DNA of 20,852 nt from Opitutia bacterium (GTDB lineage Bacteria; Verrucomicrobiota; Verrucomicrobiia; Opitutales; Seribacteraceae): the NCBI GenBank assembly GCA_002689665.1, contig NZEN01000065.1:14009-34860 (forward strand). The letters run 5' to 3'. The position numbers and the translations under genes are program-made. A model generated the notes under the pieces. It ran no database searches, was not told where the DNA came from, and was given only the letters and a program-made list of their open reading frames with translations. Below, piece by piece: positions 3,094 through 19,447 of this stretch (the stretch's first letter is position 1; every line of letters starts with the position of its first letter).

Positions 3094-3898
3094 ACCGTTC
3101 GTTGTCTTCCTCTTGTTTCTTTGGGTGGGTGTAAGTTCTTTATTAGGAGAACTTACCCAAAAGCGTCAGATGCTTTTCTATTTTGATAAGATCGAGGTAA
3201 ATGGTGCGGTTGATGTCTTTGTTACTCCTGGTCCAAGAAATGAAGAGGCACTAATTTTTGCGGACTCTGAGATAATGGATAACATCTCCCTCACGGTTCG
3301 GGAACGGGTATTATTTATCGATGCAAATAACACCTATGACATCAGCCGCAGACTTCCATTTATTAAGCTGCGAGCTGAAAGAATATTTCCAGTGGAAATT
3401 ATTATTCATACTGAAAAACTTTCTGAATTACGGTTAAATGAAACTGCCAACCTGACCGTGACGGATATTAGAACTCCAAAACTTTCAATTCACACGACAG
3501 GCAGTGGTCGTTTCCATCTGGAGAATGCTTCGGTCGATTCTCTTTCCGTCAGGCAGGATGGGAAGGGTCCGGTAATTCTTAAAGGACAGGAAGTAAGTAA
3601 CCTGGATCTATTGGTTATGAATGATGGCCCCGTTTGGGCTCAGTCGCTGCCCGTTGACCGAGCACGTATTTTACACCATGGAAATAAGAGCATTGAAATA
3701 AATTCACTGAAATTTCTTGATACAAGAATTTTTGGGCAAGGAAATGTTCTTCTACACAGTAAGCCAAAAAGCATTGTGGTCACTCAAAAAGGTACGGGAA
3801 AAGTCGTGGATGTACTCCCTGATGCACCCCAGCTGTATGACCTAAATGCAACTAGCCCTGTATTGCCTTTAAAAAGGGTATCTTTGAGAAGAAATTAA
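3059..3898 (+). CDS. Membrane-anchored DUF2807/GIN-domain (putative adhesin-head beta-helix) protein
   Basis: I prefer the ATG at 3059 because it gives MVSVENSDQKNRPFVVFLLFLWVGVSSLLG, an N-terminal signal or TM anchor. The body shows the repetitive beta-strand pattern typical of DUF2807 (FDKIEVNGAVDVFVTPGP..., LSIHTTGSGRFHLEN, LSVRQDGKGPVILKG). The family call rests on pattern memory, not a search. Confidence 0.55.
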   Translation: MVSVENSDQKNRPFVVFLLFLWVGVSSLLGELTQKRQMLFYFDKIEVNGAVDVFVTPGPRNEEALIFADSEIMDNISLTVRERVLFIDANNTYDISRRLPFIKLRAERIFPVEIIIHTEKLSELRLNETANLTVTDIRTPKLSIHTTGSGRFHLENASVDSLSVRQDGKGPVILKGQEVSNLDLLVMNDGPVWAQSLPVDRARILHHGNKSIEINSLKFLDTRIFGQGNVLLHSKPKSIVVTQKGTGKVVDVLPDAPQLYDLNATSPVLPLKRVSLRRN

Positions 3899-4811: not shown

Positions 4812-5792
4812 TTAACGATCTAGCCAAGTGCCTGTTTCATCTTGGTAAGAATCTGTCACCCGCCCATCTCCCCAATCATACTTTCCATCTAAGGCAAATC
4901 CATTTTTAAAAACACCGATATAAGTTGCACCGTTACCAAAATCTACGGTTCCCGCACCCTCCTTCAGTCCATCTGCCCAAGTACCAAAATATCGAACACC
5001 ATTTACCTGTTCTTCGATCCCAAACCCATTGGGCAAACCTTCTGAAAATTGCCCCGTGTATTTTGATCCATCGCTACTCAATAGCATCCCACTGCCAGAG
5101 TATTGATCATCCTCAAAATCTCCCACATACAGAGTTCCGTCTACTTTTTCCAGAATCCCCTTCCCATGGTAGGAATTAGCTAAAAATTCACCGGCGTAAA
5201 GATCACCGTTCGGGTTATTTATAAAACCTGACCTGTAACTTCCATCAGAGTTAAATATCCCGTTATATTCAGCCCCAAACGAATCTCTCGAAAAACCTTC
5301 TTCTAAAAAGTCCCAATTCCCGCGCCATTTTCCCGAACGAATAGAGCCATCACTACCTTGATAATCGCCATATTCCAATCTATCTTTTATCCATTGCCCT
5401 GTTACTCGCGACCCATCAGTCAAAACCAAGGTTCCATAGCCATTCCATTTATCGTTTGCCCACATACCAACATAACGGTCAATCAATTCATCTTGCTTAA
5501 ATCTGTAGGTGCCATGACCGTGTGCCCTCCCCTTTTGAAATTGACCTTCATATTCGTCGCCTTGTGGAAAGTCCTTTTTTCCATACCCATGCGGTTCTCC
5601 CCTCATCAATTCACCCGTATAAGTTGAACCATCCTCTAATGCCTGCTTGCCGGTTTGTGCCTTACGGAGTAAAACCTTTCCTTCCGACACTGATTGGTCA
5701 CTTTTAGGAAGAGGTGAACTATCCTCAGAGCAACTGCTAAGATAAATGAAATTAGCTATAAAACAAAGGCGTAAAAGATAATTTTTATTCAT
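4812..5792 (-). CDS. MORN-repeat lipoprotein
   Basis: 326 aa. Signal peptide with lipobox (FIYLSS|C). About 11 consecutive MORN-type repeats of the form Y-x-G-x-[FW]-x(3-5)-G-x-G (YTGELMRGEPHGYG, YEGQFQKGRAHGHG, YVGMWANDKWNGYG, YAGEFLANSYHGKG, YVGDFEDDQYSGSG, YTGQFSEGLPNGFG, YFGTWADGLKEGAG and others). The start lies 6 nt downstream of the gspF stop. Confidence 0.85.
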   Translation of the reverse strand: MNKNYLLRLCFIANFIYLSSCSEDSSPLPKSDQSVSEGKVLLRKAQTGKQALEDGSTYTGELMRGEPHGYGKKDFPQGDEYEGQFQKGRAHGHGTYRFKQDELIDRYVGMWANDKWNGYGTLVLTDGSRVTGQWIKDRLEYGDYQGSDGSIRSGKWRGNWDFLEEGFSRDSFGAEYNGIFNSDGSYRSGFINNPNGDLYAGEFLANSYHGKGILEKVDGTLYVGDFEDDQYSGSGMLLSSDGSKYTGQFSEGLPNGFGIEEQVNGVRYFGTWADGLKEGAGTVDFGNGATYIGVFKNGFALDGKYDWGDGRVTDSYQDETGTWLDR

Positions 5793-5798
5793 TAATAA

Positions 5799-7055
5799 TC
5801 AGTAACTGATACTTTTACTAACCTGAAAAATACTTGTGACAATAGAAATCGCAACAATTGCTACTAAAGAGAAGGCAAAACCCAATGCTGATCCAGAAAC
5901 AAGTGTGGTCATGACCTTGATTCGTTTGGTTAATCTAGTTCTAAATGAGCGACTGGAATCCTCTATACTATTACCTAAATTTCCAGTTTTCTCACCGACT
6001 TCGATCACATCCAATTGCATCAGAGGCATAAATTTATATTTCCTAAGTGCATCCGGAAGTGACTTTCCTTCGTTAACTAAGGCTCGTGCAGATCTGAATT
6101 GACTTCTCAAAAAGCGATTTTTGATTGTTTTTTCGCAGAGCCTCAGATTTTCAGTCAATCCAATCCCACTCCATATTAAGGTAGATAACAAACTGCTTAA
6201 CTGGAACATTTCCGAAAGGTAGAAAATGTCACCAAAAAGAGGAATGCGAAGTAAATTCTGATCGAAAAGAACTCCGCCTTTATCTGATTTACTCCATCTG
6301 TATAAAGCTCCACCTCCAACTAGAATTCCAATCAATACAAAAGGTCCAAATGTAAGTACCAAATTGGAACCATTAATCAAAACCTTGGCCATCATATTTA
6401 ATTCCCCACCCAAAGAATCGAGCATTTCCTCAATTTGAGGCAGGAGAAAAAATAAGAAGAAAAGAACTACCCCAAAAGCGACTGTGCCGACGAAAACAGG
6501 ATAGGTCATGCTGCTCAAAACTTTATTTTTTATTTCACGCTTCTCTTCAATGTGAAGAATAATCTTTGCGAGAATAGGAGCTAAATTTCCTGTTGCTTCA
6601 CCTGCTTCAACAACAAAAGTCGAAGACTCAGAGAAATACTGTGGCAATAGGCGCATAGCTCTTGAGAGCGTTCGTCCTTCAGCTAATTCTTTCCACAATT
6701 TACCCGCTATTTCTTTTTGATAAGGATCTGAAAGTCTGAGGTTCAACAATTTAACCGACTCTGCAATTGGCATTCCACTGTTATGAAGCTCGTGAAGTCG
6801 TTTAAGAAATTCTAAACCTAATCTTTCACCCTTTTGGCTACCCTTACCAATTACTTTCCCTTTGGACTGATTATTTGTTGATTCGTTTGCAACTTTTTTT
6901 TGCCCATTTTGACTATTACCTACTGCTTTTAATTTTAAAGGAGTGAGTCCCTTAACTTGCAGATTCTCTTTTGCCTCTTTGGAATTCTTGGCAAGGAGCT
7001 TACCGGAGGAAGATTTCCCCCTTTTATTGATTGCTACATATGTGAACTCACGCAT
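5799..7055 (-). CDS. gspF: Type II secretion / type IV pilus inner-membrane platform protein (GspF/PilC family)
   Basis: 418 aa. Family-typical N-terminus (FTYVAINKRGKSSSGKLLAKNSKEAKENLQVKGLTPLKL), two repeated cytoplasmic helical domains each followed by TM segments, and a position directly after the GspE ATPase. Contains a low-complexity insertion (NSQNGQKKVANESTNNQSKGKVIGKGSQKG). Confidence 0.9.
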   Translation of the reverse strand: MREFTYVAINKRGKSSSGKLLAKNSKEAKENLQVKGLTPLKLKAVGNSQNGQKKVANESTNNQSKGKVIGKGSQKGERLGLEFLKRLHELHNSGMPIAESVKLLNLRLSDPYQKEIAGKLWKELAEGRTLSRAMRLLPQYFSESSTFVVEAGEATGNLAPILAKIILHIEEKREIKNKVLSSMTYPVFVGTVAFGVVLFFLFFLLPQIEEMLDSLGGELNMMAKVLINGSNLVLTFGPFVLIGILVGGGALYRWSKSDKGGVLFDQNLLRIPLFGDIFYLSEMFQLSSLLSTLIWSGIGLTENLRLCEKTIKNRFLRSQFRSARALVNEGKSLPDALRKYKFMPLMQLDVIEVGEKTGNLGNSIEDSSRSFRTRLTKRIKVMTTLVSGSALGFAFSLVAIVAISIVTSIFQVSKSISY

Positions 7056-7107: not shown

Positions 7108-9441
7108 CTAAACTTCTTCCTCCACAACACCATCAGCATAACGAATTACCTCATCAAAGGTAGTTAAACCTCTTTTAATCTGTTGCCATCCACTTCCTTG
7201 CAAGGTGCTCATTCCCTCTTTCAGGGCAACTTCTCGTATATCAGGAGCGGATGCACTTTTAATCACAAGACTGTGAATCGAATCGCTCATTCTCATAAGT
7301 TCAAAGATTCCAACGCGACCTCGATAACCTAAGTTTTGACATTTCGGACACCCTTTAGCGTCTTTTACCTTATCCAGAAAGGTCTTTTCTGCTGGGTCAA
7401 TTTCGAGCAGAGATAAAGAAGCTAACAAATCTTTCTCAGTCATCTTCGTTGGCAAGCAACATTCCTGGCAAAGTCTTCTTACCAAACGCTGAGCAATCAC
7501 CATCTCAACCGAGGATGCGATCAAGAAAGGTTCAATTTCCATATCAACCAATCGGGTGATGGCACCCGGAGCATCATTAGTATGCAAGGTACTAAGAACT
7601 AAGTGACCGGTAAGGGAGGCCCGAATTGCAATATCGGCCGTTTCACGGTCACGAATTTCTCCAACCATGATTACGTCTGGATCTTGTCGGAGTATCTCCC
7701 GCAAAGCACTTGCAAAATTGAAACCAATCTCAGAATTAACTTGGGTTTGGTTAATACCAGCAACTTCGTATTCGACAGGATCTTCAACTGTCATAATCCT
7801 ACGCTCAGGTTTATGTATTTTACGTATAAAAGCTGTGAGGGATGTAGACTTCCCCGAACCGGTGGGACCTGTAACCAACACTATCCCGTGAGGCTTTTCT
7901 AGTACAGACACAATATTGCTCTCATCTCTTGGCAACAAGCCAAGTTCAGTCATGGATAAAGGTTGAGATTTTTCGTTTAGAAGACGCAAACTGATACTTT
8001 CCCCGTAAAGCGTAGGTAAAGTGGAGACCCGAATATCCAGATCACTTTGTCCATGAGAAAATGTAATCCTGCCACCTTGAGGCCTCCGTTTTTCGGAAAT
8101 GTTAATACCGGCCATAATTTTAATCCTGGATATGATCGCATCCTGAAAACTTCTTAAATTATCAGGAACCCGAACAGGAACTAGCTGACCGTCGATACGA
8201 TACCTTATCTGAAGAGTATCTTTATGGGGCTCAAAATGAATATCAGTTGCACGGTCGACAATTGCCTTTTGCACCACTTCATTCACAAAGCGAATGATCG
8301 CTGCATTCTGATCCTCCAAATCATCCTGTGTATCCTCTTCATTTTCATCATCGAGGTCAGAATCATCGAGACTATCTGATCCAATACCAAAGTTTTCAGT
8401 GATCGCTCCGATAACCATTTCAGGTAGCCCAAGGTACCAAATTGGCTTTCTTCCAGAGACAGCGTATACCCATCTACTCATTCTAGGAGTTGGAGGCCAA
8501 ACTGTAAGTAAATGAATCTTACCGTCATCTTTTGTATGACTGACTTTGTCCACTAACTTCTTTTGGTGGATTTCGCTTCCTTCCTTGAGAGTTTGTATCA
8601 ATTCCTCAGAGGAACAAGGTTTTGTCAAAATCTTGAATACTTTCCCTGAGTTAATGGCCTCCTTTGCAGTATCGAAATCAGAATGTCCGGTGATCAAAAC
8701 ACTGGCAATATCGGGATCTAATTTGTTTATTTCAGAAAGCATTTCAGAGCCGCTCATTCCAGGCATTCTCATATCTGACAATACCACAGAAAACCCGCCT
8801 ACTTTCTTGAAGATCTCGATCCCACTTTCGCCCCCCTTCGCGACATGGAGATCGAAGTATTTGCGCAAATTTAATTGGTACCCTCGTAAAATAGATTCAT
8901 CATCATCGACACACAGCACTTTTACTTTTTCCTCATGGATTGGCGACTGCTCTACCTCAACCGGTAAACTGCTAAATGCATGAATTAGTCGTAATGGAAA
9001 GTTCCTAGTAGGATTTTCAGCGAGTAAAAAATCATCAAGAAGTGGGAAGTTTTTTCTTTCTGAAATCGACTGCATCGTATGTTCTATACTCATAGAAACT
9101 TTGGCCGAGAGCAATCGGGCCCGATCTTCCAGTGGAGCGTTTTGAATATTTAGACGATCCAAGTCTGACAAATCTGGCCACCAGTCAAATCTTGCACCCG
9201 GATCATCACCTAATACCTCATACTTTTTTTCCTTTAGCCCTGAATCCTTTTTTTCTTTGGGTTGATCTTTGTCATTTGGCTTACGACCATTATCACTATC
9301 ACTTACATCTTCCTGCTCAACAGGTACTTTTTTATTCTGTAATCCTTCAATATGGAATGAGGAATTATCACCTCCTTTTTTCCTCTTTTTCTTTTTGGAA
9401 GAAAAAGTACTGGTGATAAATTTCGGACGAAGGATAGACAT
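7108..9441 (-). CDS. gspE: GspE/PilB-family secretion ATPase with an N-terminal low-complexity region and a CheY-like receiver (REC) domain
   Basis: 777 aa. ATPase half: Walker [10 protein letters not shown] (aa 524-532), Walker [11 protein letters not shown], His box [12 protein letters not shown], and tetracysteine site CQEC...CPKC. REC, aa ~173-288 (nt 8578-8925): [22 protein letters not shown] (acceptor D223), LITGH (T251), KILTKP (K274). Confidence 0.9.
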
Positions 9442-9461: not shown

Positions 9462-9983
9462 CTACTTTGCCGGGGTAGGCAATTTTGCACGCGGAGGAAT
9501 GGTTAATGTGCGATTTCCCTGTAAGTTTATTCTAGTAGGAGACTTTACTTTATTTATATTGGCGGGGGTGTTGGGTTTTGGTTTTGGGACAGGAATGCCG
9601 CTTGGAACCTGAAGTATCTTGTTTTCAGATTTTTTTAACGAAAGAGTCAGACCTCCTTCCATTTTCAAAACTTCAGTTTCTGGATTAAACCCTTCTATCT
9701 TCACACTACCATCCTGAAATGATTCTCCTTTTTTCAGCCAAACTCCCTTGTTTTTCGCCTTATCAAATATTGAAAAATACCATTCATCTTTGAGTTTAAA
9801 AAACCCTCGTAATTCGATGTTGGTATTCTGCGGTTTCGGCGGAGGAGGAGGAGGTGCTGGTCTTGAAATAACAGGTGGCCTTGGTTTGTTGGAACCAGGG
9901 CGTAAAAAAGGATTTTGTCCAAATACTATGACACATTGTGATAATGTGATGAATAAAAACGCACTCCAATTTAGGTATTTCAT
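9462..9983 (-). CDS. Small exported proline-rich protein, possible PilP / GspC-HR-domain analogue
   Basis: I prefer the start at M17 of the listed ORF (nt 9983), which gives MKYLNWSAFLFITLSQCVIVFGQ (signal peptide or anchor) and removes the overlap with the secretin gene. It has a poly-Pro linker (RPAPPPPPPKP), then a ~60-aa beta-rich block (IELRGFFKLKDEWYFSIFDKAKNKGVWLKKGESFQDGSVKIEGFNPETEVLKMEGG) resembling the homology-region fold of PilP/GspC. The function is inferred from pattern and position. Confidence 0.45.
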   Translation of the reverse strand: MKYLNWSAFLFITLSQCVIVFGQNPFLRPGSNKPRPPVISRPAPPPPPPKPQNTNIELRGFFKLKDEWYFSIFDKAKNKGVWLKKGESFQDGSVKIEGFNPETEVLKMEGGLTLSLKKSENKILQVPSGIPVPKPKPNTPANINKVKSPTRINLQGNRTLTIPPRAKLPTPAK

Positions 9984-9993
9984 AAAAAAATCA

Positions 9994-12303
9994 CTAAAAG
10001 TTCTTAAGGTCAGGTACTGGAGATTTCTCATCGCTCAAGGATGGTTTTGCCTTATCAGGAATACCTAACGATTTGCCTGATGGAGATGTGAAAGTGGGAA
10101 AATAATTCTGCTGCATCGTTTGATCGATTCTTAATGTATTTTCGACACTCCTATCAGTAGACTCTGGATCAAACAGTCTTGGTCTTATAAATATAATCAA
10201 TTCAGTTGGAGTATACTTGACCGATTTGGGTGTAAAAAACTTCTCCCCAATATAAGGGATATTGCTTAAAAGATTATATTTAGACTCCGACTTATTCAGT
10301 TGAATTTCCCGCAATCCGCCAATTACCATAATTTCCTGATCGTTAACCGCAAGGTCGGTACTTGCAGTCCTGGTCTTTTTGCCAGGCAAGTTCTGCCCTT
10401 CATAAACATTTGCCGTGGTTTCATCAAATTTTTCCGCAGAAACTTCAACTGACATAAAAATAGTACCTCTCGAATTTTCAATCGACTTATCCCTTAATTT
10501 GATTCTGGGATTTTTAATTTTCATTTCAGTCTTAGCTTCAATCTCTTGTAATTGCGTGGACGAATTGGCATTTCCGTAATTATTAACCGGAAGACCTACA
10601 TATCGGGTATCCCTAATCTCAATTTTATTACGATCACTTGCAGAGTTATTTTCAGTTCCTTTACCTCCATGAATAACAGTTAAGGAAGGAGTTGAAAAAA
10701 TTCTCACATCATTACGAAGTTGGGCTAAAGAGAAAATTTGATCCCACTTAATTTGAGTAAGCTTCCAATTCTGCAATTGAAATGGGACTGCTGAATCAAG
10801 CAATGGGACTTGAAGGACGCCATCCAGAGCATTTTGGGCGTCAGAAATTTCGGTGCTTTGAACATCGTCATCGGTATCAGGTAGTCCATCAGGTCCTGGT
10901 TCATTAATCGTTCTGGAAATACCACCTTCTTTAGCCCACTGTAAATCTTTGAAAAAAGAATCGACTCCACTACTGCTGCCCTCACTGATATCAACCATTA
11001 CAAAAATGGTATCAATTTGAGCCATAGGCAACGGCTTATCCAACTGCAAAACTATATCAGAAGCCATCTGTATATCTTTGTCAGTTCCATGGATAAAGAT
11101 TCCATTACTACGAGGGTCAGGCACCACCTGTGCATATTCACTAAAGTTTCCATTTATAGCTCCACTGGAACTTGTTGAATTGGAGATAGTATTTGTCGCA
11201 GGCTTTGGAGTGGGAGTAGGAGATTTTGGTGAACTGCCTTTCGAAATGCTCTTGGTTGAAGCACCGATGATTCCCTGTAAAATATCAGAAACCTGTTCTG
11301 CATCGGCATGATAAAGAGTAATTAATTCACTTCTAGGCTCTTCCAAGGCATTATCTACATTCAATGATTTTATAATTTTTTGCAGTATGCTCACATCTTT
11401 CATGTGGCAAACGACTGTTAGCTTTGTTCCTTGGTCTGGGGCCTGAAAATGAGGTGGCACCTGAAATCGATTTGCTAATAAACCTCCTTCTTTAAGGATT
11501 GGGCTAAGTGACTTACTCAAGAATTCTTTGGCCTCTGTGTAATTTAAATCGACTGTGAAAATTTCGATGTCGATTTCTGATTCAGTCATGGGTTTATCTG
11601 TCTCACCAATAATTTTCTCCATCCTTTGAAGATTAATTAAGGCATCAGTAATCATAATGGAATTAGCATGGGGGAAGGTCAGCAGCGATGAGACATTGGG
11701 TGTTGCAAATGGATTCAAGATTTCCCTCATTTTCTCAACGGGAGTATATTCGAGTCTATATAGCTTGATATAAATATTTTGGCTTGGTTTTATGATGGAA
11801 GCCGGTCCATCCAACCAAATGGGCACATGGACATTAACGCCTTGAGCCGGAACAGCCTTATAAAACTTGTCATTAATTTTGGTGATCGCGACACCATTCA
11901 TCGACAACAAACTTTCCACTGCCATTAATGTTTCCCGTTTTGTAAGTGGGGTCATACTATCAAATGTAATCTTTACTTGAGGTAAGTTCTGAGGTCTGAG
12001 AATATACCTGCCTGTGATCAGCTGGATCATGTCCAAAATCATATTTGTATCCTGATCTCTTAATTTCAGGACTTCAAACTCTTCATCCAGTCCATCAATT
12101 AGCGATAGTTCATTGGGATCGGACAATGGATTGATCGGCAAAACTGGATCCGGAAAGGTTTCTGCAGCAGGAATGTTATTCGGTACTTGAGCATCAGGTA
12201 GTGTTGGTGAAGGAGCTACATTATCAACGTCACTTGCAGGCACTTGGCCAAAGACCATACTTGCGGTGAAAAATGTAAATGCTGTAAAAAAAATATGTTT
12301 CAT
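9994..12303 (-). CDS. gspD: Outer-membrane secretin (GspD/PilQ family)
   Basis: 769 aa. Signal peptide (MKHIFFTAFTFFTASMVFG|Q), N0-like domain (EVLKLRDQDTNMILDMIQLITGRYILRP...ITFDS), repeated N-domains and the C-terminal secretin signature (YNLLSNIPYIGEKFFTPKSVKYTPTELIIFIRPRL). Confidence 0.9.
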   Translation of the reverse strand: MKHIFFTAFTFFTASMVFGQVPASDVDNVAPSPTLPDAQVPNNIPAAETFPDPVLPINPLSDPNELSLIDGLDEEFEVLKLRDQDTNMILDMIQLITGRYILRPQNLPQVKITFDSMTPLTKRETLMAVESLLSMNGVAITKINDKFYKAVPAQGVNVHVPIWLDGPASIIKPSQNIYIKLYRLEYTPVEKMREILNPFATPNVSSLLTFPHANSIMITDALINLQRMEKIIGETDKPMTESEIDIEIFTVDLNYTEAKEFLSKSLSPILKEGGLLANRFQVPPHFQAPDQGTKLTVVCHMKDVSILQKIIKSLNVDNALEEPRSELITLYHADAEQVSDILQGIIGASTKSISKGSSPKSPTPTPKPATNTISNSTSSSGAINGNFSEYAQVVPDPRSNGIFIHGTDKDIQMASDIVLQLDKPLPMAQIDTIFVMVDISEGSSSGVDSFFKDLQWAKEGGISRTINEPGPDGLPDTDDDVQSTEISDAQNALDGVLQVPLLDSAVPFQLQNWKLTQIKWDQIFSLAQLRNDVRIFSTPSLTVIHGGKGTENNSASDRNKIEIRDTRYVGLPVNNYGNANSSTQLQEIEAKTEMKIKNPRIKLRDKSIENSRGTIFMSVEVSAEKFDETTANVYEGQNLPGKKTRTASTDLAVNDQEIMVIGGLREIQLNKSESKYNLLSNIPYIGEKFFTPKSVKYTPTELIIFIRPRLFDPESTDRSVENTLRIDQTMQQNYFPTFTSPSGKSLGIPDKAKPSLSDEKSPVPDLKNF

Positions 12304-12848
12304 GGGTTGAGAAATTCTACTGAACTAACTTCAAAAGAAGCGTCGAAAGTCGTGGGATCATAAGGTCGGTTTTTAGGCGGGTAATTTGGCTCAATTTTCA
12401 CTTCACTTAAAAACATGTATGGGCTTTCAGCACGTATTAAAGCGGCATATTCATTTACATCCTCGTAACTTGCCCGGTCAAATTTAATTCTCACTCGGTG
12501 TTGTTTGTATCTTTCTCTTTCGTCTGAATCCAATTCGCGGTAGTCCCTCTGAGGAAACACTTGGTCAGCTAGTCGAGAGGCAAGATTACTTAATTGTTTC
12601 TTATCGTAGCTTTTGTTTTGTTGGTCGGTCTTTTGTTGTTCCAGTGCAATATCTATCGATGGCTTTAAACTGAGAATTTGTTTATGCCCTGAAATAACTC
12701 TTTCATTTAATTCCCATTGCTCATATGTCTCTACGGAGTTACCCAAAATCTTAAAAATAAAAATTGCCAAAACAGACCAAATAGCAATGACAAGCAAAGT
12801 TTGCTCCCTTGCGTTTAGTCCAAAAAATAAATTCTCTATATATTTCAT
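12300..12848 (-). CDS. GspM-like (or PilO-like) bitopic assembly-platform protein
   Basis: 182 aa. N-terminal pattern FFGLNAREQTLLVIAIWSVLAIFIF resembles the GspM 'L-x-x-RE + single TM' start. A coiled-coil-like periplasmic part follows. It is positioned after the GspL-like gene, and its stop overlaps the secretin start (ATGA, 12300-12303). Confidence 0.5.
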   Translation of the reverse strand: MKYIENLFFGLNAREQTLLVIAIWSVLAIFIFKILGNSVETYEQWELNERVISGHKQILSLKPSIDIALEQQKTDQQNKSYDKKQLSNLASRLADQVFPQRDYRELDSDERERYKQHRVRIKFDRASYEDVNEYAALIRAESPYMFLSEVKIEPNYPPKNRPYDPTTFDASFEVSSVEFLNP

Positions 12849-12856
12849 GACCCTTT

Positions 12857-14107
12857 TCAGTTTGGCACGGAACTTAATTCTTTTGTTTTGGTATCTTCAA
12901 TTAATTCGATATCCATTTCAAAAGATGTTTTTCCACCCGCACTTCTAATTTTTCTTCGCTCGTCTCCTCCTCGATCTAGCATAAGGGTAGCAACTTTGTT
13001 TTTTTCAATATTTTCAATGAATGTATTGATGGATTCGATGTTTTTACCTTCACCCTTGATTTGAACCTCATTTCTACTTTCGAAATGAGCGGATGTAAAC
13101 CAGACATCTAAATTGTTGGCCGTTCCACCAAGATGACTATATAGTCTGCCAATCGAACCGAATGGATCGATGCCACCGAGTTTATTTTGCTGCAATTTTT
13201 CCAAAAGCTTTCTCGACTCTATTACTAAAGGAACTTCAGTCGCCATATTTAAGGCAAGTGTTTGTCGATCTTGAAGCTTAACTCCAAAAATTTTCAGTCC
13301 TAGAAAAAGGATAAGGGTCGCAGCCATGCTCAAACTCCAAATCTTTGTGGCCTGCCATTTGCCACGACTCTGACTACGGCGCTTTCTCTCCTCTCTCTTA
13401 AAAGATGGAGAACGAATATCGATGGACCATAGCTCCTCTGAATCAATGAAAACATCCTGCTCCAAATCAAGACTGGGGTCATCACCTTGCAGCCACTCGT
13501 GTTCAAATTTAAAAACACCATCCTTCTGACGATCAACTTCTCCAGCTACCAAAACATCAGACAAAATATCATAATTATCAGAATCTACCAACGAGAGTAG
13601 TTTACCGCGGGCAATTTTCAAAGACTCTTCATCATCACTTTCAACAGGTAATGAGAATAATGAACTGGGGATCTTGGAATCAGCAAGGTAAGTAATTACG
13701 CTTAGCGTATTGTCTTCCATCAGAAAAAGAATCGTGTTCTTGGAAAAACTCTTTCCTAGAACAGACACAAAGGATGGAAAAACCCGGCGAAAAATGTCAA
13801 TTGCTTGCCAACCCATCTGCCGAAGTTTCACAAGAGGACAGGCAAATATAAAAACCCTCTTTTCCTTTAATGAACCGTAATATCCCCAGGCCACTTGGTC
13901 TTGGGGATATGGAGAAAGTGTCTTCGTGTCAAAAAACTCGCCAACAAACTGTTCTAAGACCTCCTGCTCGCTCTGGTCTTCATGAGTAGATAGGGATGCG
14001 GGGATATCAACACTTTCGCAAAAAAAATGTTCACCAGGAATTCTAAGAATAAAACTTCTTAACTCTAACAATTCCAATTCGGAATCTTTTTGAGATTCTT
14101 CGGCCAT
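12857..14107 (-). CDS. GspL-like (or PilM-PilN-like) bitopic assembly-platform protein
   Basis: 416 aa with a ~255-aa cytoplasmic part, a basic stop-transfer tract (KREERKRRSQSRGK), one TM (IWSLSMAATLILFLGLKIFGV, aa ~256-276) and a ~140-aa periplasmic domain. This topology, the size and the position after gspK match GspL. I recognise no diagnostic sequence motif. Confidence 0.45.
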   Translation of the reverse strand: MAEESQKDSELELLELRSFILRIPGEHFFCESVDIPASLSTHEDQSEQEVLEQFVGEFFDTKTLSPYPQDQVAWGYYGSLKEKRVFIFACPLVKLRQMGWQAIDIFRRVFPSFVSVLGKSFSKNTILFLMEDNTLSVITYLADSKIPSSLFSLPVESDDEESLKIARGKLLSLVDSDNYDILSDVLVAGEVDRQKDGVFKFEHEWLQGDDPSLDLEQDVFIDSEELWSIDIRSPSFKREERKRRSQSRGKWQATKIWSLSMAATLILFLGLKIFGVKLQDRQTLALNMATEVPLVIESRKLLEKLQQNKLGGIDPFGSIGRLYSHLGGTANNLDVWFTSAHFESRNEVQIKGEGKNIESINTFIENIEKNKVATLMLDRGGDERRKIRSAGGKTSFEMDIELIEDTKTKELSSVPN

Positions 14108-14141: not shown

Positions 14142-14180
14142 AAACACTGATTGAAAGTAACTTACTTCCAATCAGTGTTT
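14142..14180 (-). other. Intercistronic stem-loop between gspK and the GspL-like gene
   Basis: Arms 14142-14158 and 14164-14180 with a 5-nt loop (14159-14163). There are 16 Watson-Crick pairs plus position 14154/14168, which is an A.C mismatch in plus-sense RNA but a G.U wobble in minus-sense (operon) RNA. The stem starts at the last base of the gspK stop codon. No U-tract follows on either strand. Confidence 0.7.
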
Positions 14181-15295
14181 CAGTCGATTAAATTCTCATT
14201 TTCCTTCAAAGCCAAAATACGGAATGGATAATTCATTCCTAAATTCAGTTTGCTTCGCGGTAATACATTTTTTTTGTTCTGGTTGGTTTGTCCCCGTGTG
14301 CTTTGATTTATATTAATCTCCAAAATTGCGTGCAATTTGAATACGGACTTCCCTTTTTTGATTGTAATTTCAATTCTTAAAAAATCGATCCTTGGGGTTA
14401 ATGTTAATCCTGCTTTGTTAGCCAACTGCTCTATCTTTCTGTAATATTCATCTAAATCAGAAGAATCTCCTGATCTCCGTAACTCAAGAAGTTCCTCAAC
14501 CAAATACTCATCAAAGTCTGCAAGAAAACGAACTATAAATTCGGTGGTACTGAATGGGTTAATTTTGTCTTCGTTGTAAAACGAGAAAGAATCCTTAAAT
14601 TTCTTAAATTCCTTAGTTTCGAAACCGTATTTATCATAAAAAATACCGCTCTCATCAGGGTCATCATAAGATAAACCAAAACCTCTGATCATCTGGAACT
14701 CATTGTATGAATAAATTTTCCTTCCGGGCGTAAAATAGGGAGGATCAAGATTTTCATAAAAATCATCCTCGGCTCCTTCTTCCCTTGGTTCGTTATCAGA
14801 GTCTTGCCAATCTTTAAAAGAATCCAGCAAAGGTTTCCCCTCTTCTTCGTCATAATTACCCCACTGATCCTCAATCATCATCGCAGCAAACAATTTGGAT
14901 AACTTCCCATCCTGTATTTTAAAGAGCGGCACTTTTCCAGTTTCATCCAATAAAGTGGCCTCCCATTCAAAAGGGTTGGTGCCGTCACCTTTTTCTCCAC
15001 TTGTATTGAACATGGCGGGACTCATTTTATCAGCATACCGCAGGGGATCCCAAAAGTGCCAAGTTGGTTTTATATATCCTTCAGTCATGTACCATTCATT
15101 CACTACTCCCACGACCAAGTCCAAACATGAGTAAGCGTAAATCCGCAGATCATCTTTACGGTAAAATTGACTTACATGCCTAAGTTCCTGCGTAGTTTCT
15201 TTAATCAAACGGATTGATAAAGCGGAGAGCAAGACCAGTAACCCCAATACGAAAACCAAGATTGAGCCTTTTTTACCTTTCGTATGGCTTTTCAT
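14180..15295 (-). CDS. gspK: Minor pseudopilin GspK
   Basis: 371 aa. Prepilin-like hydrophobic N-terminus without Glu5 (KGKKG|SILVFVLGLLVLL), as is usual for GspK. Conserved GspK core pattern DWQDSDNEPREEGAEDDFYENLDPPYFTPGRKIYSYNEFQMIRGF. Position after gspJ. Confidence 0.8.
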   Translation of the reverse strand: MKSHTKGKKGSILVFVLGLLVLLSALSIRLIKETTQELRHVSQFYRKDDLRIYAYSCLDLVVGVVNEWYMTEGYIKPTWHFWDPLRYADKMSPAMFNTSGEKGDGTNPFEWEATLLDETGKVPLFKIQDGKLSKLFAAMMIEDQWGNYDEEEGKPLLDSFKDWQDSDNEPREEGAEDDFYENLDPPYFTPGRKIYSYNEFQMIRGFGLSYDDPDESGIFYDKYGFETKEFKKFKDSFSFYNEDKINPFSTTEFIVRFLADFDEYLVEELLELRRSGDSSDLDEYYRKIEQLANKAGLTLTPRIDFLRIEITIKKGKSVFKLHAILEININQSTRGQTNQNKKNVLPRSKLNLGMNYPFRILALKENENLID

Positions 15296-16008
15296 CTAGG
15301 CTCTTCCTCGATTCCACTTGGAATCGGTTTATCAATTGCAATAGTAATGGTCTTTTCCAAGTCTTCCTCATCCCATCGAAAAACTAATTTAATTTGGGTA
15401 GGTAATCTAAATTTCTCCCCCTTTTCACTTTCTAGCAACTGCTCACTAATTTCCCATTCTTTAATGTCGTCTTTACCATCATCTTCCGATCCATAATAAC
15501 AGTAGTACATTTCTTTTAAAAAAGGACTTATGAGAGTTTTTCGAAGATCATCCTCTTCGGCTAACTCAATTCCACCTTCTTTATTTTTTTCAATTTCATT
15601 TAATTCCGAAAACCAAAGTATTGATAGTCCTTCATCTTCATCGGGATAAATGAAGGCGTGCAAACGAACGGCCGGTCCGTGAGGGTTATAAAACAATGGC
15701 GGTGCTTCCTTTACAAAAAAATGAATCAGTGGGTCATCGGTGGATGAAAAGCCAGTGGGGCGTTTGAGATCAATAAGCGGATCGCCAGTTTTGGATGTTA
15801 TAGAATAGCTAGCCTCCTCTAGAATAATAGTAAGGAAATTGGATACCCCGTTAACATGAGATAAAAATGCATCACGAGTTGCTGGACGATTTGCCCAAGA
15901 TTGGGCGATTGTAATTAATAGGGCTGTTGCAGAGACAAGCACGAGACTACCTATGCTCAGAGCAAGGAGCACTTCTACCATAGTAAACCCGTTCCGCCTG
16001 TGTTTCAT
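15292..16008 (-). CDS. gspJ: Minor pseudopilin, GspJ position
   Basis: 238 aa. Prepilin peptidase site and Glu5 (HRRNG|FTMVEVLLALSIGSLVLV). The assignment as J rests on the conserved G-H-I-J-K gene order. ATGA overlap with gspK. Confidence 0.7.
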   Translation of the reverse strand: MKHRRNGFTMVEVLLALSIGSLVLVSATALLITIAQSWANRPATRDAFLSHVNGVSNFLTIILEEASYSITSKTGDPLIDLKRPTGFSSTDDPLIHFFVKEAPPLFYNPHGPAVRLHAFIYPDEDEGLSILWFSELNEIEKNKEGGIELAEEDDLRKTLISPFLKEMYYCYYGSEDDGKDDIKEWEISEQLLESEKGEKFRLPTQIKLVFRWDEEDLEKTITIAIDKPIPSGIEEEPR

Positions 16009-16517
16009 TAAAGGTTTTTCTTAACTTTTAAGATGTTGTCCACATTTCTCATATTGCCTTCATCTCTGAGCTCCTTGATCTTTTCGCTTTTTGCCTCCAA
16101 CAACCATTGTCTTTCAGTCTTGAAATCGCTGTGATTCATCCAGATTGGTCGAAGAAGTAGCATCACATAATCTCGCTCACCGCTCTCGATTCCAAGTTCA
16201 CTGTTTCCATCCCAGGATAAAGTGAGCAGTACCCTGTATAAATCGACTATATCAGTCATTTCTACTTCCACCTCCCAAACAATCTCACCTATATTGACCG
16301 TCTCAAGTTCGCCACCTTCCTTTAACTTTTCATAATTGGCCTCCCGAAAAATTTCACTTCTGGCCCAGAGTAAATCATGATCAAGCTCTTGGCTGGCTTT
16401 CATTTGCAGCATAGTTCTTGATCCGATAAAAGCACCCTCAACCAGATAAACTGCCATAAGCGCAAATAGAGCCAATGCAATAAGTACTTCAATAAGCATG
16501 AAACCTCTATTTTTCAT
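16008..16517 (-). CDS. gspI: Minor pseudopilin, GspI position
   Basis: 169 aa. MKNRG|FMLIEVLIALALFALMAV prepilin N-terminus. TAATG stop/start overlap with gspJ (16006-16010). Longer than typical GspI. Confidence 0.7.
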   Translation of the reverse strand: MKNRGFMLIEVLIALALFALMAVYLVEGAFIGSRTMLQMKASQELDHDLLWARSEIFREANYEKLKEGGELETVNIGEIVWEVEVEMTDIVDLYRVLLTLSWDGNSELGIESGERDYVMLLLRPIWMNHSDFKTERQWLLEAKSEKIKELRDEGNMRNVDNILKVKKNL

Positions 16518-17050
16518 AAATCAAGCTCATCGGGATTTAACTCATACCCTGAGAATGGATCAAAATATAAGGTGTCAGATTTCTCCATGAATAAGATTTC
16601 AGCCGTAAATGGAGTTGAACAACCTGCATGAAAACGAATTGATTCCAACTCTAACTGCTCATCTTCCAGATCAGTTTCCTCACCATCCACGCCAGTCCCT
16701 GGTCCTATCGCCCGGAAAAAAACCCGAGGGATTTTTTCTGGGGAGGATTGAATATCCTCAGATATTTCTTCGTAGATTTTGAAATCCTTTAAAATCCCTC
16801 CTTGTGGATCTGAGATTAAAAAGGAAGCATTCTCTTCTAAGTAACTTAACCTGACTTCTCTTTTACGTTCGTTCGAGAGGTAGATCCCTTCAAGCACTGC
16901 TCTTTTGAGAACTCTACTAGGTGGTTCGACTTTTGATCCATCAATAAAACCTGCTATGTTTCCACTGACGATTGCAGCCAAAACCCCAACCAGAGCCAAA
17001 ACGATAAGAATTTCGATTAAGCTAAACCCAGCTACTGGATGCTTTCGCAA
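16514..17050 (-). CDS. gspH: Minor pseudopilin, GspH position
   Basis: 178 aa. TTG start. HPVAG|FSLIEILIVLALVGVLAAIV prepilin N-terminus. ATGA overlap with gspI (16514-16517). Confidence 0.7.
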   Translation of the reverse strand: MRKHPVAGFSLIEILIVLALVGVLAAIVSGNIAGFIDGSKVEPPSRVLKRAVLEGIYLSNERKREVRLSYLEENASFLISDPQGGILKDFKIYEEISEDIQSSPEKIPRVFFRAIGPGTGVDGEETDLEDEQLELESIRFHAGCSTPFTAEILFMEKSDTLYFDPFSGYELNPDELDL

Positions 17051-17061
17051 AATTTAAAGAA

Positions 17062-17478
17062 TTAATTAGAGGGATCTTTATTGCTTAGTCTTTTTCCTTC
17101 CGGACTAGTCGTCCAAAGTTCAAAGCTGTTCGCCTGTAAAGTATATTGATAAGGCTTACCCCAGGGGTCATTCAAATCGGAGGCTTTGTTCACAAAAGGA
17201 GTCACACCACTTGGTGGGGATAATAGATCATTAAGAGTAGTTGGATAATTCCCAACAAGAGCAAGATAACTGTTAATGTAGGCAGGACCTGTAGCATTAA
17301 CCCATGTTTGAGCCGCCTTCTCCTTGCCACCGCCGAATATACCTCCGAGATTTTGCATAGCTAAACCGGCGACGATACCGATCAAAGCAAGAACGATTAG
17401 AATTTCTACCAGCGTGAAACCTCTGTTTTTATTTTTAAGTTTTAGTGGTTCTTTCAGCTCAAGTCTTTGATCATTCAT
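17062..17478 (-). CDS. gspG: Major pseudopilin GspG
   Basis: 138 aa. KNRG|FTLVEILIVLALIGIVAGLA prepilin N-terminus plus the GspG-typical DPWGKPYQY motif. First gene of the operon. The leader is unusually long, about 20 aa. Confidence 0.92.
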   Translation of the reverse strand: MNDQRLELKEPLKLKNKNRGFTLVEILIVLALIGIVAGLAMQNLGGIFGGGKEKAAQTWVNATGPAYINSYLALVGNYPTTLNDLLSPPSGVTPFVNKASDLNDPWGKPYQYTLQANSFELWTTSPEGKRLSNKDPSN

Positions 17479-18091: not shown

Positions 18092-19447
18092 ATGAGAATT
18101 GATCGGTACATCTCAAATTCCCGGATTATAGATCTGTCCTCCAGAGATCTTCGATCTGCCTACTCTGAACTGATTGATACTTTCGGCACCCAATTAACCA
18201 CCCCTGCCAGTCGGAAAAAAGTGCTCAAAGAGCTAGTGGAAAGGGAAAAATCCCTTACCAGCTACATCGGGGAAGGAGTTGCCCTGCCCCATGCTCGGGT
18301 ACCGATGAAGCGGCCATACGCACTTGCTGTCGGCAGATGCCCAGCAGGTTTGACATTTGAAGGCAAGGACAGCTATGAAGACATTCGCTTTGTTTTTCTT
18401 CTTCTAGCCAACGAGAAGGCCAAAAACTATCTTTCCTTTCTCGCCGCCCTCGCCCGTGCGTTTCAGGATAATTCCGTCATGGACCAGCTATGGATGGCCC
18501 GTGACAAAAACGAATTCAAAAATGCCGTCAGGAATGCATTTGCGGAAACCGATGACCGACCTGCCCGCCGCCGAACTAAATTTAACAAGCTCCTCACCGA
18601 TGAAGCTGCCAAAATAGCTAAGGCCGCTGAGTGCTCCACCATACTTGTATTCACCGATGTCTTTCCACCGACTCTTGCTCCACGCATGACATTCCCCAAT
18701 TTCAAGGTGGTTCTTGCCGGCGAAGGGGTAACGGAAGAGGACCAGGCTCATCACCGGGCCGATGCCACCTTGGCCGTACGGGCCCTTTCCCGTTCCCGCC
18801 TTTCTCAACTTCGGGCAGCCATCCTACTGGGATTAACCCGTGAAATATTTGGATTTCAAGATCGTGTTTGCTGCGTGGGAGGGATACCCGACAGCGGACA
18901 ACTTGATACCGTATTGGTCGTGGATGTAGATGAAGAATTTGAATCAGTCATCGGACAGGGTGATGAAATGTTACCGACAGATGTGGCTGCTGAATCCCTG
19001 GAACGACTGACCGCGATTGCCACAGACTTGGCCACGGCCGGTCGCGAAGGTAAATCGATCGGTGCCATGTTTGTGCTCGGTGATCACGAAGAAGTGATTA
19101 AGCGATCCAAACAGTTGATTCTCAATCCTTTTCATGGCTACGCCGAAGAGGATCGAAATATCCTCAATCCCTTCATGGATGAAACTATCAAAGAGCTCGC
19201 CTTGATTGATGGTGCATTCATCGTACAGGGTAATGGCGTGGTCGAATCAGCCGGATGCTTAATTCAGGCAAAAGCGGACGAGATTGATCTACCCGGTGGC
19301 ATGGGTACGAGACATGCAGCTGCGGCCGCGATCACCCAGACGACGGATTCCCTCGCCCTGGTGGTATCAAGTTCCGGTCAAGTCACCTATTTCCGAAAAG
19401 GTCGCATGTTTACCCTGTTTGATAAATCCGAGGGTCGTTCCTTGTGA
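18092..19447 (+). CDS. PTS EIIA(type 2/Ntr)-like domain fused to a central alpha/beta domain and a C-terminal diadenylate cyclase (DisA_N/DAC) domain
   Basis: 451 aa. EIIA-2 pattern in aa 1-150 with the phosphorylatable-His context GEGVALPHARV (His67, nt 18290-18292). DAC pattern in aa ~300-440: GAMFVLGD, LIDGAFIV (DGA, nt 19208-19216), GMGTRHAAAAAIT (RHA, nt 19310-19318), SLALVVSSSGQVTYF. Confidence 0.8.
   Translation: MRIDRYISNSRIIDLSSRDLRSAYSELIDTFGTQLTTPASRKKVLKELVEREKSLTSYIGEGVALPHARVPMKRPYALAVGRCPAGLTFEGKDSYEDIRFVFLLLANEKAKNYLSFLAALARAFQDNSVMDQLWMARDKNEFKNAVRNAFAETDDRPARRRTKFNKLLTDEAAKIAKAAECSTILVFTDVFPPTLAPRMTFPNFKVVLAGEGVTEEDQAHHRADATLAVRALSRSRLSQLRAAILLGLTREIFGFQDRVCCVGGIPDSGQLDTVLVVDVDEEFESVIGQGDEMLPTDVAAESLERLTAIATDLATAGREGKSIGAMFVLGDHEEVIKRSKQLILNPFHGYAEEDRNILNPFMDETIKELALIDGAFIVQGNGVVESAGCLIQAKADEIDLPGGMGTRHAAAAAITQTTDSLALVVSSSGQVTYFRKGRMFTLFDKSEGRSL

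What the first reader, a model, noticed from the sequence alone, without database searches (positions are those of the whole stretch)
7108..9441. T2SS ATPase (GspE) with a CheY-like receiver domain replacing the usual GspL-docking N-terminus
The C-terminal half (aa ~380-777) is an ordinary GspE/PilB ATPase: an N2-like segment [24 protein letters not shown], Walker A/B, a His box and a CxxC...CxxC zinc site. Upstream of it, canonical T2SS ATPases carry the N1E domain that binds cytoplasmic GspL. This ORF instead has two other elements. The first is ~170 aa of K/E/D-rich low-complexity sequence ([24 protein letters not shown]). The second is a complete receiver domain (aa ~173-288, nt 8578-8925) with every canonical residue: acidic triad D179-D181, acceptor D223 in [11 protein letters not shown]251 and K274 in KILTKP. 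A short hydrophobic segment and a strongly acidic linker ([24 protein letters not shown]) follow it. This implies the motor of the secretion machine is gated directly by His-Asp phosphotransfer, yet no histidine kinase is encoded in the window. I know of no experimentally characterised REC-GspE, but I cannot say from memory how common the architecture is in databases.
Basis: partly seen in the sequence, partly recalled or inferred. Interest (0 to 1): 0.75.

Follow-up and report, generated by a model that had tools for sequence, protein, structure and literature searches.

The report
Receiver domain nested inside GspE's docking domain
The motor ATPase of a type II secretion system in uncultured marine Opitutales (Verrucomicrobiota) carries a complete two-component receiver domain inserted into a loop of its GspL-docking N-terminal domain (it does not replace that domain), which suggests phosphorylation controls secretion directly at the motor.

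Summary
The 777-aa ORF (7108-9441, minus strand) is real. It contains a significant receiver (REC) domain at aa 175-285 with all five catalytic residues, and a GspE/PilB ATPase at aa 377-767. REC-less orthologs from the same operon slot align on both sides of REC, with 18 aa between the flanking motifs instead of 155-165, and those contiguous flanks hit Pfam MshEN (formerly T2SSE_N). AlphaFold2 predicts both flanks as confidently folded, with REC looped out between two strands. A genuine GspL is encoded four genes upstream, so the docking partner is present. Among 120 homolog clusters, 57 carry an intact REC, 12 a degenerate pseudo-receiver, 2 a short loop and 49 no insert. All those identified come from marine Opitutales/Opitutia. 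In intact-REC lineages the insert evolves as slowly as flank A. No histidine kinase lies within about 10 kb in the window or in four related loci. I found no publication describing this architecture. Known parallels are c-di-GMP sensing by MshEN and REC proteins that regulate PilB in trans. Verdict: a new variant of a known kind. The proposed mechanism, phospho-control of N1E-GspL coupling, is inferred.

The parts
7108..9441 (-). gspE encoding the 777-aa REC-nested GspE ATPase
   Evidence: ORF. Pfam T2SSE plus Response_reg. TIGR02533 GspE scores 521 bits, below the 630 cutoff, and matches profile positions 86-484 only.
9187..9441 (-). N-terminal extension (aa 1-85): conserved [11 protein letters not shown] motif followed by a fast-evolving K/E/D-rich, probably disordered segment
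   Evidence: The motif is shared with REC-less P0053 and pseudo-REC P0080. dN is high against distant orthologs. This region was not included in the AF2 model.
8944..9186 (-). Flank A (aa 86-166): helical subdomain, a further helix and the first beta-strand of the N1E/MshEN-like domain
   Evidence: Conserved in REC-less orthologs. AF2 pLDDT about 90, with helices at aa 93-100, 104-114, 119-130 and 150-155 and a strand at 158-162. The MshEN Pfam match of orthologs starts in this region.
8548..8925 (-). Inserted receiver (REC) domain (aa 173-298), with acceptor D223 and D180/D181/T251/K274
   Evidence: Pfam E 2.6e-19. AF2 predicts a (beta-alpha)5 fold. Foldseek matches REC domains with TMt up to 0.92. 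The catalytic quintet is conserved in 57 of 69 insert-bearing clusters.
8374..8523 (-). Flank B (aa 307-356): beta-alpha-beta-alpha, the second half of the N1E/MshEN-like domain ([18 protein letters not shown])
   Evidence: Nearly invariant across the family. AF2 pLDDT above 90. It directly follows flank A in REC-less orthologs.
8308..8373 (-). Acidic N1E-N2E linker (aa 357-378)
   Evidence: Predicted disordered. Also present in REC-less orthologs. A flexible N1E-N2E linker is a known GspE feature (PMC6882859).
7138..8307 (-). N2E plus CTE ATPase core (aa 379-768), with Walker A and a tetracysteine Zn site
   Evidence: Pfam T2SSE. About 86-89% identical to REC-less orthologs.
12857..14107 (-). 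gspL (416 aa): cytoplasmic actin-like domain, one TM helix, periplasmic ferredoxin-like domain
   Evidence: No Pfam or NCBIfam family match. AF2 pLDDT 82. Foldseek matches PilM, PulL-cyto 5tkw, GspL in 4pht, EpsL 1yf5/1w97, and the periplasmic domains XcpY 5n7l, PulL 8a9w and EpsL 2w7v.
5799..7055 (-). gspF platform protein
   Evidence: Pfam T2SSF (two stretches); TIGR02120, 253 bits.
9994..12303 (-). gspD secretin
   Evidence: Pfam Secretin and Secretin_N; TIGR02517.
12300..12848 (-). Probable gspM (182 aa)
   Evidence: Weak NF040576 GspM match spanning nearly the full length, E 0.013. Its position after gspL fits.
14180..17478 (-). gspG, three minor pseudopilins and gspK
   Evidence: Pfam N_methyl, T2SSG and T2SSK_1st.

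Best explanation
This is the GspE motor ATPase of a complete type II secretion operon from a marine Opitutales bacterium. It keeps the usual three-part GspE layout: an N1E/MshEN-like docking domain, an acidic flexible linker, and the N2E-CTE ATPase. A full, phosphorylation-competent receiver domain of the RpfG-like REC subfamily is nested in the loop between two strands of the alpha/beta subdomain of N1E.

Proposed mechanism (inferred): an unlinked histidine kinase or Hpt protein, or a small phosphodonor, phosphorylates D223. The resulting change at the alpha4-beta5-alpha5 face is passed through the unusually long alpha5 helix (aa 278-298), which leads via a 6-residue connector into the next N1E strand. 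This alters how N1E engages the cytoplasmic domain of GspL, or how N1E packs against the ATPase ring, and so switches motor recruitment or activity and secretion.

Shown: the domain content, the nested topology, the presence of GspL, strict orthology with REC-less forms, and purifying selection on REC.
Inferred: phosphorylation itself, its source, and its effect on GspL binding or ATPase activity.
For: Domains: Pfam REC E 2.6e-19 and T2SSE E 6e-130.

Nested topology:
- The alignment with REC-less orthologs shows a clean gap of about 140 aa flanked by invariant motifs.
- The motif spacing is bimodal: 18 aa versus 155-165 aa.
- REC-less P0077, P0053 and P0060 hit Pfam MshEN over profile positions 8-85 of 90, spanning the junction, at E 1e-6 to 7e-5. 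Nested P0039 hits MshEN in two stretches.
- 28 of 60 family members hit MshEN.
- The PilB model TIGR02538 aligns continuously from profile position 61 in the REC-less forms.
- AF2 gives both flanks pLDDT about 90, a full (beta-alpha)5 REC between them, low-confidence connectors only at aa 165-170 and 299-304, and three strands plus three helices, which is the published MshEN_C topology.

GspL: Foldseek matches the cytoplasmic domains of GspL, PulL and EpsL and their periplasmic domains.

Orthology: REC-less L082, pseudo-REC L083 and intact-REC L003/L004 all occupy the same operon slot with the same neighbours.

Functional constraint: the quintet D-D/E-D-T/S-K is kept in 57 of 69 insert-bearing clusters. 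REC dN is 0.07-0.28 in intact lineages, at or below the flank A values, against 1.07 in the pseudo-REC ortholog, with synonymous sites saturated.

Background: N1E forms a 1:1 complex with GspL-cyto and is tethered to the hexamer by a flexible linker (PMC6882859).
Against: - No kinase or Hpt gene lies within about 10 kb in the window or in four related loci.
- Twelve clusters keep a pseudo-receiver without the acceptor Asp, so the insert can persist without phosphorylation.
- REC-less orthologs show the machine does not need the insert.
- The query's own REC-excised sequence does not reach Pfam MshEN or PDB N1E by sequence. The hhalign comparison with E. coli GspE was uninformative.
- The relative orientation of REC and N1E is unresolved (pTM 0.51). 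I could not inspect coordinates, so strand pairing between the flanks is inferred.
- The residue at the usual aromatic switch position (K-3) is Ile271, read directly from the sequence.
Confidence: 0.55

Rival explanations
1. REC acts as an autoinhibitory or oligomerisation module on the ATPase ring itself, as the receiver does in NtrC1/DctD-type AAA+ activators. Unphosphorylated REC, possibly as dimers, would hold protomers in an assembly-incompetent state and phosphorylation would release hexamer formation. GspL docking would be unaffected.
For: Top structural neighbours include the DctD and HupR receivers, which signal through alpha4-beta5-alpha5 dimers and an extended alpha5. AF2 predicts a long alpha5 of 21 residues. 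N1E is tethered to the ring by a flexible linker, so an N1E-borne REC could reach the ring.
Against: The insertion sits in N1E and not next to N2E/CTE. About 22 disordered acidic residues separate N1E from N2E. No contact prediction was obtained.
Confidence: 0.2
2. The insert is a phosphorylation-independent structural or interaction module (spacer, dimeriser or binding site for another partner). Its catalytic residues are kept for folding or by inheritance, and it is on its way to decay or loss.
For: Twelve pseudo-receiver clusters, two loop remnants and 49 REC-less clusters occur within one orthologous family. No partner kinase is nearby.
Against: All five catalytic residues are strictly conserved in 57 clusters that span down to about 52% identity in the N-terminal region. 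dN is low relative to saturated dS. The pseudo-REC forms diverge much faster (dN 1.07), which shows what relaxed constraint on those residues looks like.
Confidence: 0.2
3. It is an artefact: an assembly chimera or a gene fusion created by a sequencing error, or translation really starts after REC.
For: None found.
Against: The same continuous ORF occurs in 69 clusters at 90% identity from independent metagenomes, MAGs and single-cell genomes. Conserved coding sequence lies on both sides of REC. The N-terminal MSILRPKF motif is conserved.
Confidence: 0.02

Closest known systems
Canonical T2SS ATPase GspE (EpsE/PulE/XpsE) with N1E bound to cytoplasmic GspL (PDB 2BH1, 4PHT)
   Same: Operon context (gspG-K, L, M, D, E, F); the N1E, flexible acidic linker, N2E and CTE layout; Walker A and the tetracysteine site; a GspL with matching cytoplasmic and periplasmic folds.
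   Different: A 126-aa receiver domain (about 140 aa with its connectors) is nested inside N1E. N1E also has a helical MshEN_N-like subdomain and a variable N-terminal extension of about 85 aa. The protein scores below the TIGR02533 equivalog cutoff (521 versus 630 bits).
MshE / PA14_29490-type ATPases whose MshEN (T2SSE_N) domain binds c-di-GMP (PDB 5HTL; PMC5013675)
   Same: Signal input is placed in the N-terminal domain of a GspE/PilB-family ATPase. The flanks belong to the same Pfam family in the orthologs.
   Different: The c-di-GMP motif RLGxx(L/V/I)(L/V/I)xxG... is absent from the query and from five relatives tested. The input module here is a His-Asp receiver and not a nucleotide pocket.
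REC proteins that regulate PilB-family ATPases in trans: PixG/PixH (Synechocystis), DrdR and EmvR (Xanthomonas), FimX-PilZ-PilB
   Same: Two-component or REC-containing regulators act post-translationally on the assembly ATPase (abstracts of PMC11181946, PMC13507683, PMC11973254 and PMC5595344).
   Different: Those are separate polypeptides acting on type IV pilus motors. Here REC is covalently nested in the ATPase of a T2SS.
RpfG-family response regulators (REC-HD-GYP) and REC-adenylate cyclases
   Same: They have the closest REC sequences (up to about 58-61% identity; P0248, P0415) and the closest structures (3kcn, 3hv2).
   Different: Their REC is N-terminal and is followed by an enzymatic output domain. 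No secretion ATPase is involved.
Bd2402-type REC-MshEN_N proteins (Bdellovibrio), noted in PMC5013675
   Same: REC and MshEN-type modules are combined in one protein.
   Different: The arrangement is tandem (REC, then MshEN_N), there is no ATPase, and MshEN_N binds c-di-GMP.

Membership tests
GspE/PilB secretion ATPase superfamily (Pfam T2SSE, PF00437) | N2E plus CTE ATPase core with Walker A/B and the Asp/His boxes | tested here: met
   PF00437 scores 433.6 bits over aa 377-767 and covers profile positions 3-370 of 370. Walker A is GPTGSGKS at 525-532.
T2SS GspE (as opposed to T4P PilB) | Encoded in a gsp operon with the secretin GspD, GspF, GspG-K pseudopilins and GspL/M | tested here: met
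   TIGR02533 GspE is the best NCBIfam hit but falls below its cutoff (521 versus 630 bits). PilB TIGR02538 scores almost as high (508 bits).
T2SS GspE | Tetracysteine Zn-binding motif in CTE | tested here: met
   C658, C661, C698 and C701 are invariant across the family.
T2SS GspE | N-terminal N1E domain that binds cytoplasmic GspL | tested here: inconclusive
   A split MshEN/N1E-like domain is supported by orthologs and by AF2 topology, and GspL is present. The query's own excised flanks do not reach Pfam or PDB thresholds. Binding cannot be tested here.
Response regulator receiver (Pfam Response_reg, PF00072) | (beta-alpha)5 fold | tested here: met
   69.9 bits against a cutoff of 30.2. AF2 secondary structure is beta1-alpha1 through beta5-alpha5. 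Foldseek TMt is 0.85-0.92 to solved receivers.
Response regulator receiver | Catalytic quintet: two acidic residues after beta1, the acceptor Asp after beta3, Thr/Ser after beta4, Lys after beta5 | tested here: met
   D180, D181, D223, T251 and K274. They are conserved in 57 of 69 insert-bearing clusters.
Response regulator receiver | Phosphorylation by a cognate histidine kinase or Hpt protein | not testable with these tools
   No kinase lies in the window or in the flanks of four related loci.
MshEN c-di-GMP receptor (PF05157, functional sense) | Tandem 24-residue motif RLGxx(L/V/I)(L/V/I)xxG(L/V/I)(L/V/I)xxxxLxxxLxxQ | tested here: not met
   Strict and loose regular-expression searches found nothing in the query or in five relatives.

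The most novel reading that the evidence does not exclude
A two-component phosphorylation signal is read directly by the T2SS motor, through a receiver domain nested in the N1E docking domain, so that phospho-REC allosterically switches the N1E-GspL coupling and turns secretion on or off within seconds, without transcription. Nature supplies the controls: strictly orthologous REC-intact, pseudo-REC, loop-remnant and REC-less motors in sister lineages of marine Opitutales.
Probability: 0.4. Interest if true: 0.65.

Novelty: new variant of a known kind. Interest (0 to 1): 0.52.

Why it matters
Post-translational control of type II secretion is poorly understood. The best-known direct input to GspE/PilB-family motors is c-di-GMP binding to MshEN, together with REC or PilZ proteins acting in trans on pilus motors. 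A receiver domain built into the docking domain of a T2SS ATPase would be a compact and testable example of His-Asp control of a secretion motor. It would also be an unusual case of REC as a nested domain instead of a terminal one. The family offers natural comparison sets (intact, degenerate, deleted) in otherwise 85-90% identical motors, which suits chimera and structure-function work. The organisms are abundant but uncultured marine Opitutales. From general knowledge, marine Verrucomicrobiota are known as polysaccharide degraders, so regulated T2SS export of hydrolases could matter ecologically. That link was not tested here.

Tried and rejected
1. 'REC replaces N1E' was rejected on the ortholog alignments, Pfam MshEN hits and AF2.
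2. Scanning an in-silico REC-excised query gave no MshEN match in Pfam and no N-terminal extension of the PilB/GspE alignments in NCBIfam. The query's flanks are more divergent than those of its orthologs.
3. phmmer and a profile hmmsearch of the flanks against PDB sequences returned only chance hits with E above 0.8.
4. hhalign of the flank profile against the E. coli K-12 GspE N-terminus gave no signal (Neff 1.7 against a single sequence).
5. Foldseek of the REC-containing model listed only REC hits among the 50 shown, so it could not confirm the N1E fold.
6. The exhaustive search of 1.84 billion representatives with aa 80-380 found only fragments of this clade covering the flanks. Twenty checked hits, both long proteins and top scorers, were REC-HD-GYP proteins, REC-cyclases, REC-GAF/EAL/PP2C proteins, kinases and two clade fragments, and none was another REC-T2SSE fusion. 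Clustering at 50% identity may hide nested forms under REC-less representatives.
7. The last word-indexed homolog search, run with an N-terminal profile, was swamped by generic REC proteins and missed known members, so it cannot be used to size the clade.
8. L007 and L076, partial matches in the genome scan, are not GspE: L007 encodes ordinary REC-HD-type regulators at the match, and no GspE-like ORF lies at the match in L076.
9. Formal dN/dS ratios could not be computed because dS is saturated, so only dN values were compared.
10. Seven literature searches found no description of a REC-GspE fusion. This is absence in the held library only.
Full report
OBSERVATION. The ORF at 7108-9441 on the minus strand is real and encodes 777 aa. 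Pfam places a Response_reg domain at aa 175-285 (69.9 bits, E 2.6e-19, cutoff 30.2) and a full T2SSE ATPase at aa 377-767 (E 6e-130). No T2SSE_N/MshEN hit appears for this protein. NCBIfam's best model is GspE TIGR02533, but only profile positions 86-484 are matched and the score (521) is below the equivalog cutoff of 630. The domain observation is therefore confirmed and is far beyond chance.

CONTEXT. The gene sits in a complete minus-strand T2SS operon:
- gspG, three minor pseudopilins and gspK (14180-17478)
- a 416-aa ORF (12857-14107)
- a probable gspM (12300-12848)
- the secretin gspD (9994-12303)
- a 189-aa ORF without family (9462-10031)
- the REC-bearing gspE (7108-9441)
- gspF (5799-7055)
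- a MORN-repeat protein and a metallo-beta-lactamase-fold protein

No histidine kinase or Hpt domain was found in any of the 20 main ORFs. The 416-aa ORF has no family hit by sequence. Its AF2 model (pLDDT 82) matches PilM, PulL-cyto (5tkw), the GspL chain of the GspE-GspL complex 4pht and EpsL-cyto (1yf5, 1w97). Its C-terminal domain matches the periplasmic domains of XcpY (5n7l, TMt 0.72), PulL (8a9w) and EpsL (2w7v). It is a genuine GspL, so the partner that N1E normally binds is encoded here.

WHAT THE N-TERMINUS REALLY IS. The homolog search returned 120 clusters, the few with source names labelled Verrucomicrobiota. Many are 86-89% identical to the query but cover only about 61% of it and lack REC, and several of those carry PF05157 (MshEN, formerly T2SSE_N). 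Aligning them shows why. REC-less proteins match the query on both sides of REC: upstream through [13 protein letters not shown]...EDRARLL...NPT..PLRLIH.F..LP, and downstream through [26 protein letters not shown]...ITENFGIG. A single clean gap of about 140 aa corresponds to query aa ~167-306.

Across all 120 clusters the distance between the PLRLIH and TVWPP motifs is bimodal. It is 18-19 aa in the REC-less forms, 155-165 aa in the insert-bearing forms, and 42 aa in two proteins that carry only a low-complexity loop there. In REC-less P0077, P0053 and P0060 the Pfam MshEN model aligns over profile positions 8-85 of 90, straight across the junction (E 1e-6 to 7e-5). In REC-bearing P0039 it matches in two stretches. 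Of 60 members scanned, 28 hit MshEN although only 26 lack a REC-sized insert. The PilB equivalog model aligns continuously from profile position 61 in the REC-less forms.

AF2 on query aa 80-380 with a 74-sequence alignment (mean pLDDT 79) gives the following:
- three helices (aa 93-130), short strands, a helix (150-155) and a strand (158-162), all at pLDDT about 90
- a low-confidence connector (165-170)
- a complete (beta-alpha)5 receiver (173-298) with a long alpha5
- a second low-confidence connector (299-304)
- strand, helix, strand, helix (308-351) at pLDDT above 90
- a disordered acidic linker (355-380)

[quoted passage not shown] REC is therefore nested between the first and second strands of the N1E/MshEN-like domain and does not replace it.

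Caveats. The query's own REC-excised sequence falls below the Pfam filters and finds no PDB N1E by sequence. I could not inspect coordinates, so pairing of the flanking strands is inferred from the contiguous orthologs and from the high confidence of both flanks. Only aa 1-85 is low-complexity sequence. It starts with a conserved [11 protein letters not shown] motif that also occurs in REC-less and pseudo-REC orthologs, which validates the start codon.

DISTRIBUTION AND EVOLUTION. Of the 120 clusters, 57 have an insert with an intact quintet (D-D/E, D, T/S, K). Twelve have a same-sized insert whose acceptor Asp and other key residues are lost, making them pseudo-receivers. Two have the 42-aa loop, 49 have no insert, and one is truncated. 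REC-less P0070 (L082), pseudo-REC P0106 (L083) and intact-REC L003/L004 all occupy the identical slot in the same operon with the same neighbours on both sides. These are therefore orthologs and not paralogs.

A crude NJ tree of the ATPase core, without support values, nests the REC-less groups among REC and pseudo-REC groups. The loop forms sit next to pseudo-REC forms. This suggests an old insertion followed by decay and precise loss, but the direction is not settled.

In the genome collection, only two marine single-cell genomes (AG-891-C06, AG-919-G08) and two Opitutia/Opitutales MAGs matched the whole N-terminal region. That scan was seeded with exact peptides from the query, so the count is a lower bound. 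An exhaustive HMMER pass over 1.84 billion representatives with aa 80-380 found flank-covering hits only as fragments of this clade. Every other hit was REC-only, and the 20 I checked were REC-HD-GYP, REC-cyclase, REC-GAF/EAL/PP2C proteins, kinases and two clade fragments, never T2SSE fusions from outside the clade. The nearest relatives of the inserted REC are RpfG-family receivers, by sequence and by structure (3kcn and 3hv2, TMt about 0.9).

Synonymous sites are saturated even against the closest relative. REC dN (0.07, 0.12, 0.28, 0.28 against L001-L004) is at or below that of flank A in three of those four comparisons (0.12 versus 0.075 against L002), whereas against the pseudo-REC ortholog it is 1.07 with flanks at 0.18-0.37. 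The intact REC is therefore under strong purifying selection.

MECHANISM. Established background: N1E forms a 1:1 complex with cytoplasmic GspL and is tethered to the N2E/CTE hexamer by a flexible linker, and the N1E/L-cyto units decorate the hexamer (PMC6882859).

Inference: in receiver domains generally (textbook knowledge, not measured here), the N- and C-termini lie close together on the side opposite the phosphorylation site, which makes REC easy to accommodate in a hairpin. Its alpha5, part of the alpha4-beta5-alpha5 signalling face, leads almost directly into the next N1E strand. Phosphorylation of D223 is thus well placed to change N1E conformation, and with it GspL coupling or ring assembly.

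I rate this phospho-switch at N1E as the most likely reading (0.55). Two rivals each get about 0.2: an NtrC1/DctD-like control of oligomerisation, and a phosphorylation-independent structural role. An artefact is effectively excluded. The phosphodonor is unknown: no kinase lies within about 10 kb here or in four related loci.

COMPARISON WITH KNOWN SYSTEMS. The protein is a member of the GspE/PilB superfamily and, by operon context, a T2SS GspE. It is not a c-di-GMP-type MshEN receptor, because the motif is absent. It resembles MshE in placing signal input in the N-terminal domain. It resembles PixG/PixH, DrdR, EmvR and FimX in using REC-type regulators on the assembly ATPase, but those act in trans on pilus motors. 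Wang et al. 2016 note that MshEN can co-occur with REC, for example the tandem REC-MshEN_N protein Bd2402. Seven literature searches found no description or characterisation of a REC-GspE fusion or of a nested REC in N1E. Public databases already hold dozens of these proteins, labelled 'general secretion pathway protein E' or, in one case, 'FixJ family response regulator'. The sequences are therefore not new, but the architecture appears to be unremarked.

VERDICT. This is a new variant of a known kind, restricted, as far as these searches show, to marine Opitutales. Interest is moderate (0.52). The mechanism is testable and comes with a natural series of intact, degenerate and deleted forms, but REC fused to new outputs is a familiar evolutionary theme and the regulatory function is still inferred.

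Noticed in passing
window 18092-19447 (+): A 451-aa fusion of PTS_EIIA_2, DacZ_P and a DAC diadenylate cyclase domain lies beside nuoA and the gsp operon. The same gene is the neighbour in L003, L082 and L083. This suggests a c-di-AMP cyclase possibly controlled by PTS-type phosphorylation.
   Followed up: partly
window 9462-10031 (-): A 189-aa ORF lies between gspD and gspE, with a signal anchor, a proline run (PPPPPP) and a small C-terminal domain. It has no Pfam or NCBIfam hit but is conserved (157-174 aa) at the same position in all related loci. It could be a GspC/PilP-like adaptor. The listed start overlaps the end of gspD by 38 nt, so the true start is probably Met17.
   Followed up: partly
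window 4812-5792 (-): A MORN-repeat protein (326 aa) lies immediately downstream of gspF. A protein of similar size (317-328 aa) sits in the same position in L004, L082 and L083, so it may be co-transcribed with the T2SS genes.
   Followed up: no
window 9187-9441 (-), aa 1-85 of GspE: The conserved N-terminal motif [14 protein letters not shown] is followed by a rapidly evolving K/E/D-rich stretch. The motif occurs in only a subset of orthologs and does not depend on whether REC is present (for example REC-less P0053 and pseudo-REC P0080).
   Followed up: partly
P0089 and P0091 (homologs): Two orthologs carry a 42-aa low-complexity acidic loop exactly at the REC insertion site and group with pseudo-REC forms in the crude tree. 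They may be remnants of a deleted receiver.
   Followed up: partly
window 1-20852: No prepilin peptidase (gspO) and no recognisable gspC or gspN are present in the operon or its flanks.
   Followed up: no
window 2930-3898 (+): The listed start of the DUF2807 ORF overlaps the end of uvrB by about 160 nt. The ortholog in L082 is 268 aa, so the true start is probably further downstream.
   Followed up: no
L082 19851-21779: In the REC-less relative's contig, a large TIR (ThsB_TIR/TIR_2) plus TPR protein lies just beyond the conserved neighbourhood. It looks like a candidate defence gene. The window ends before the corresponding position, so its presence in this organism is unknown.
   Followed up: no
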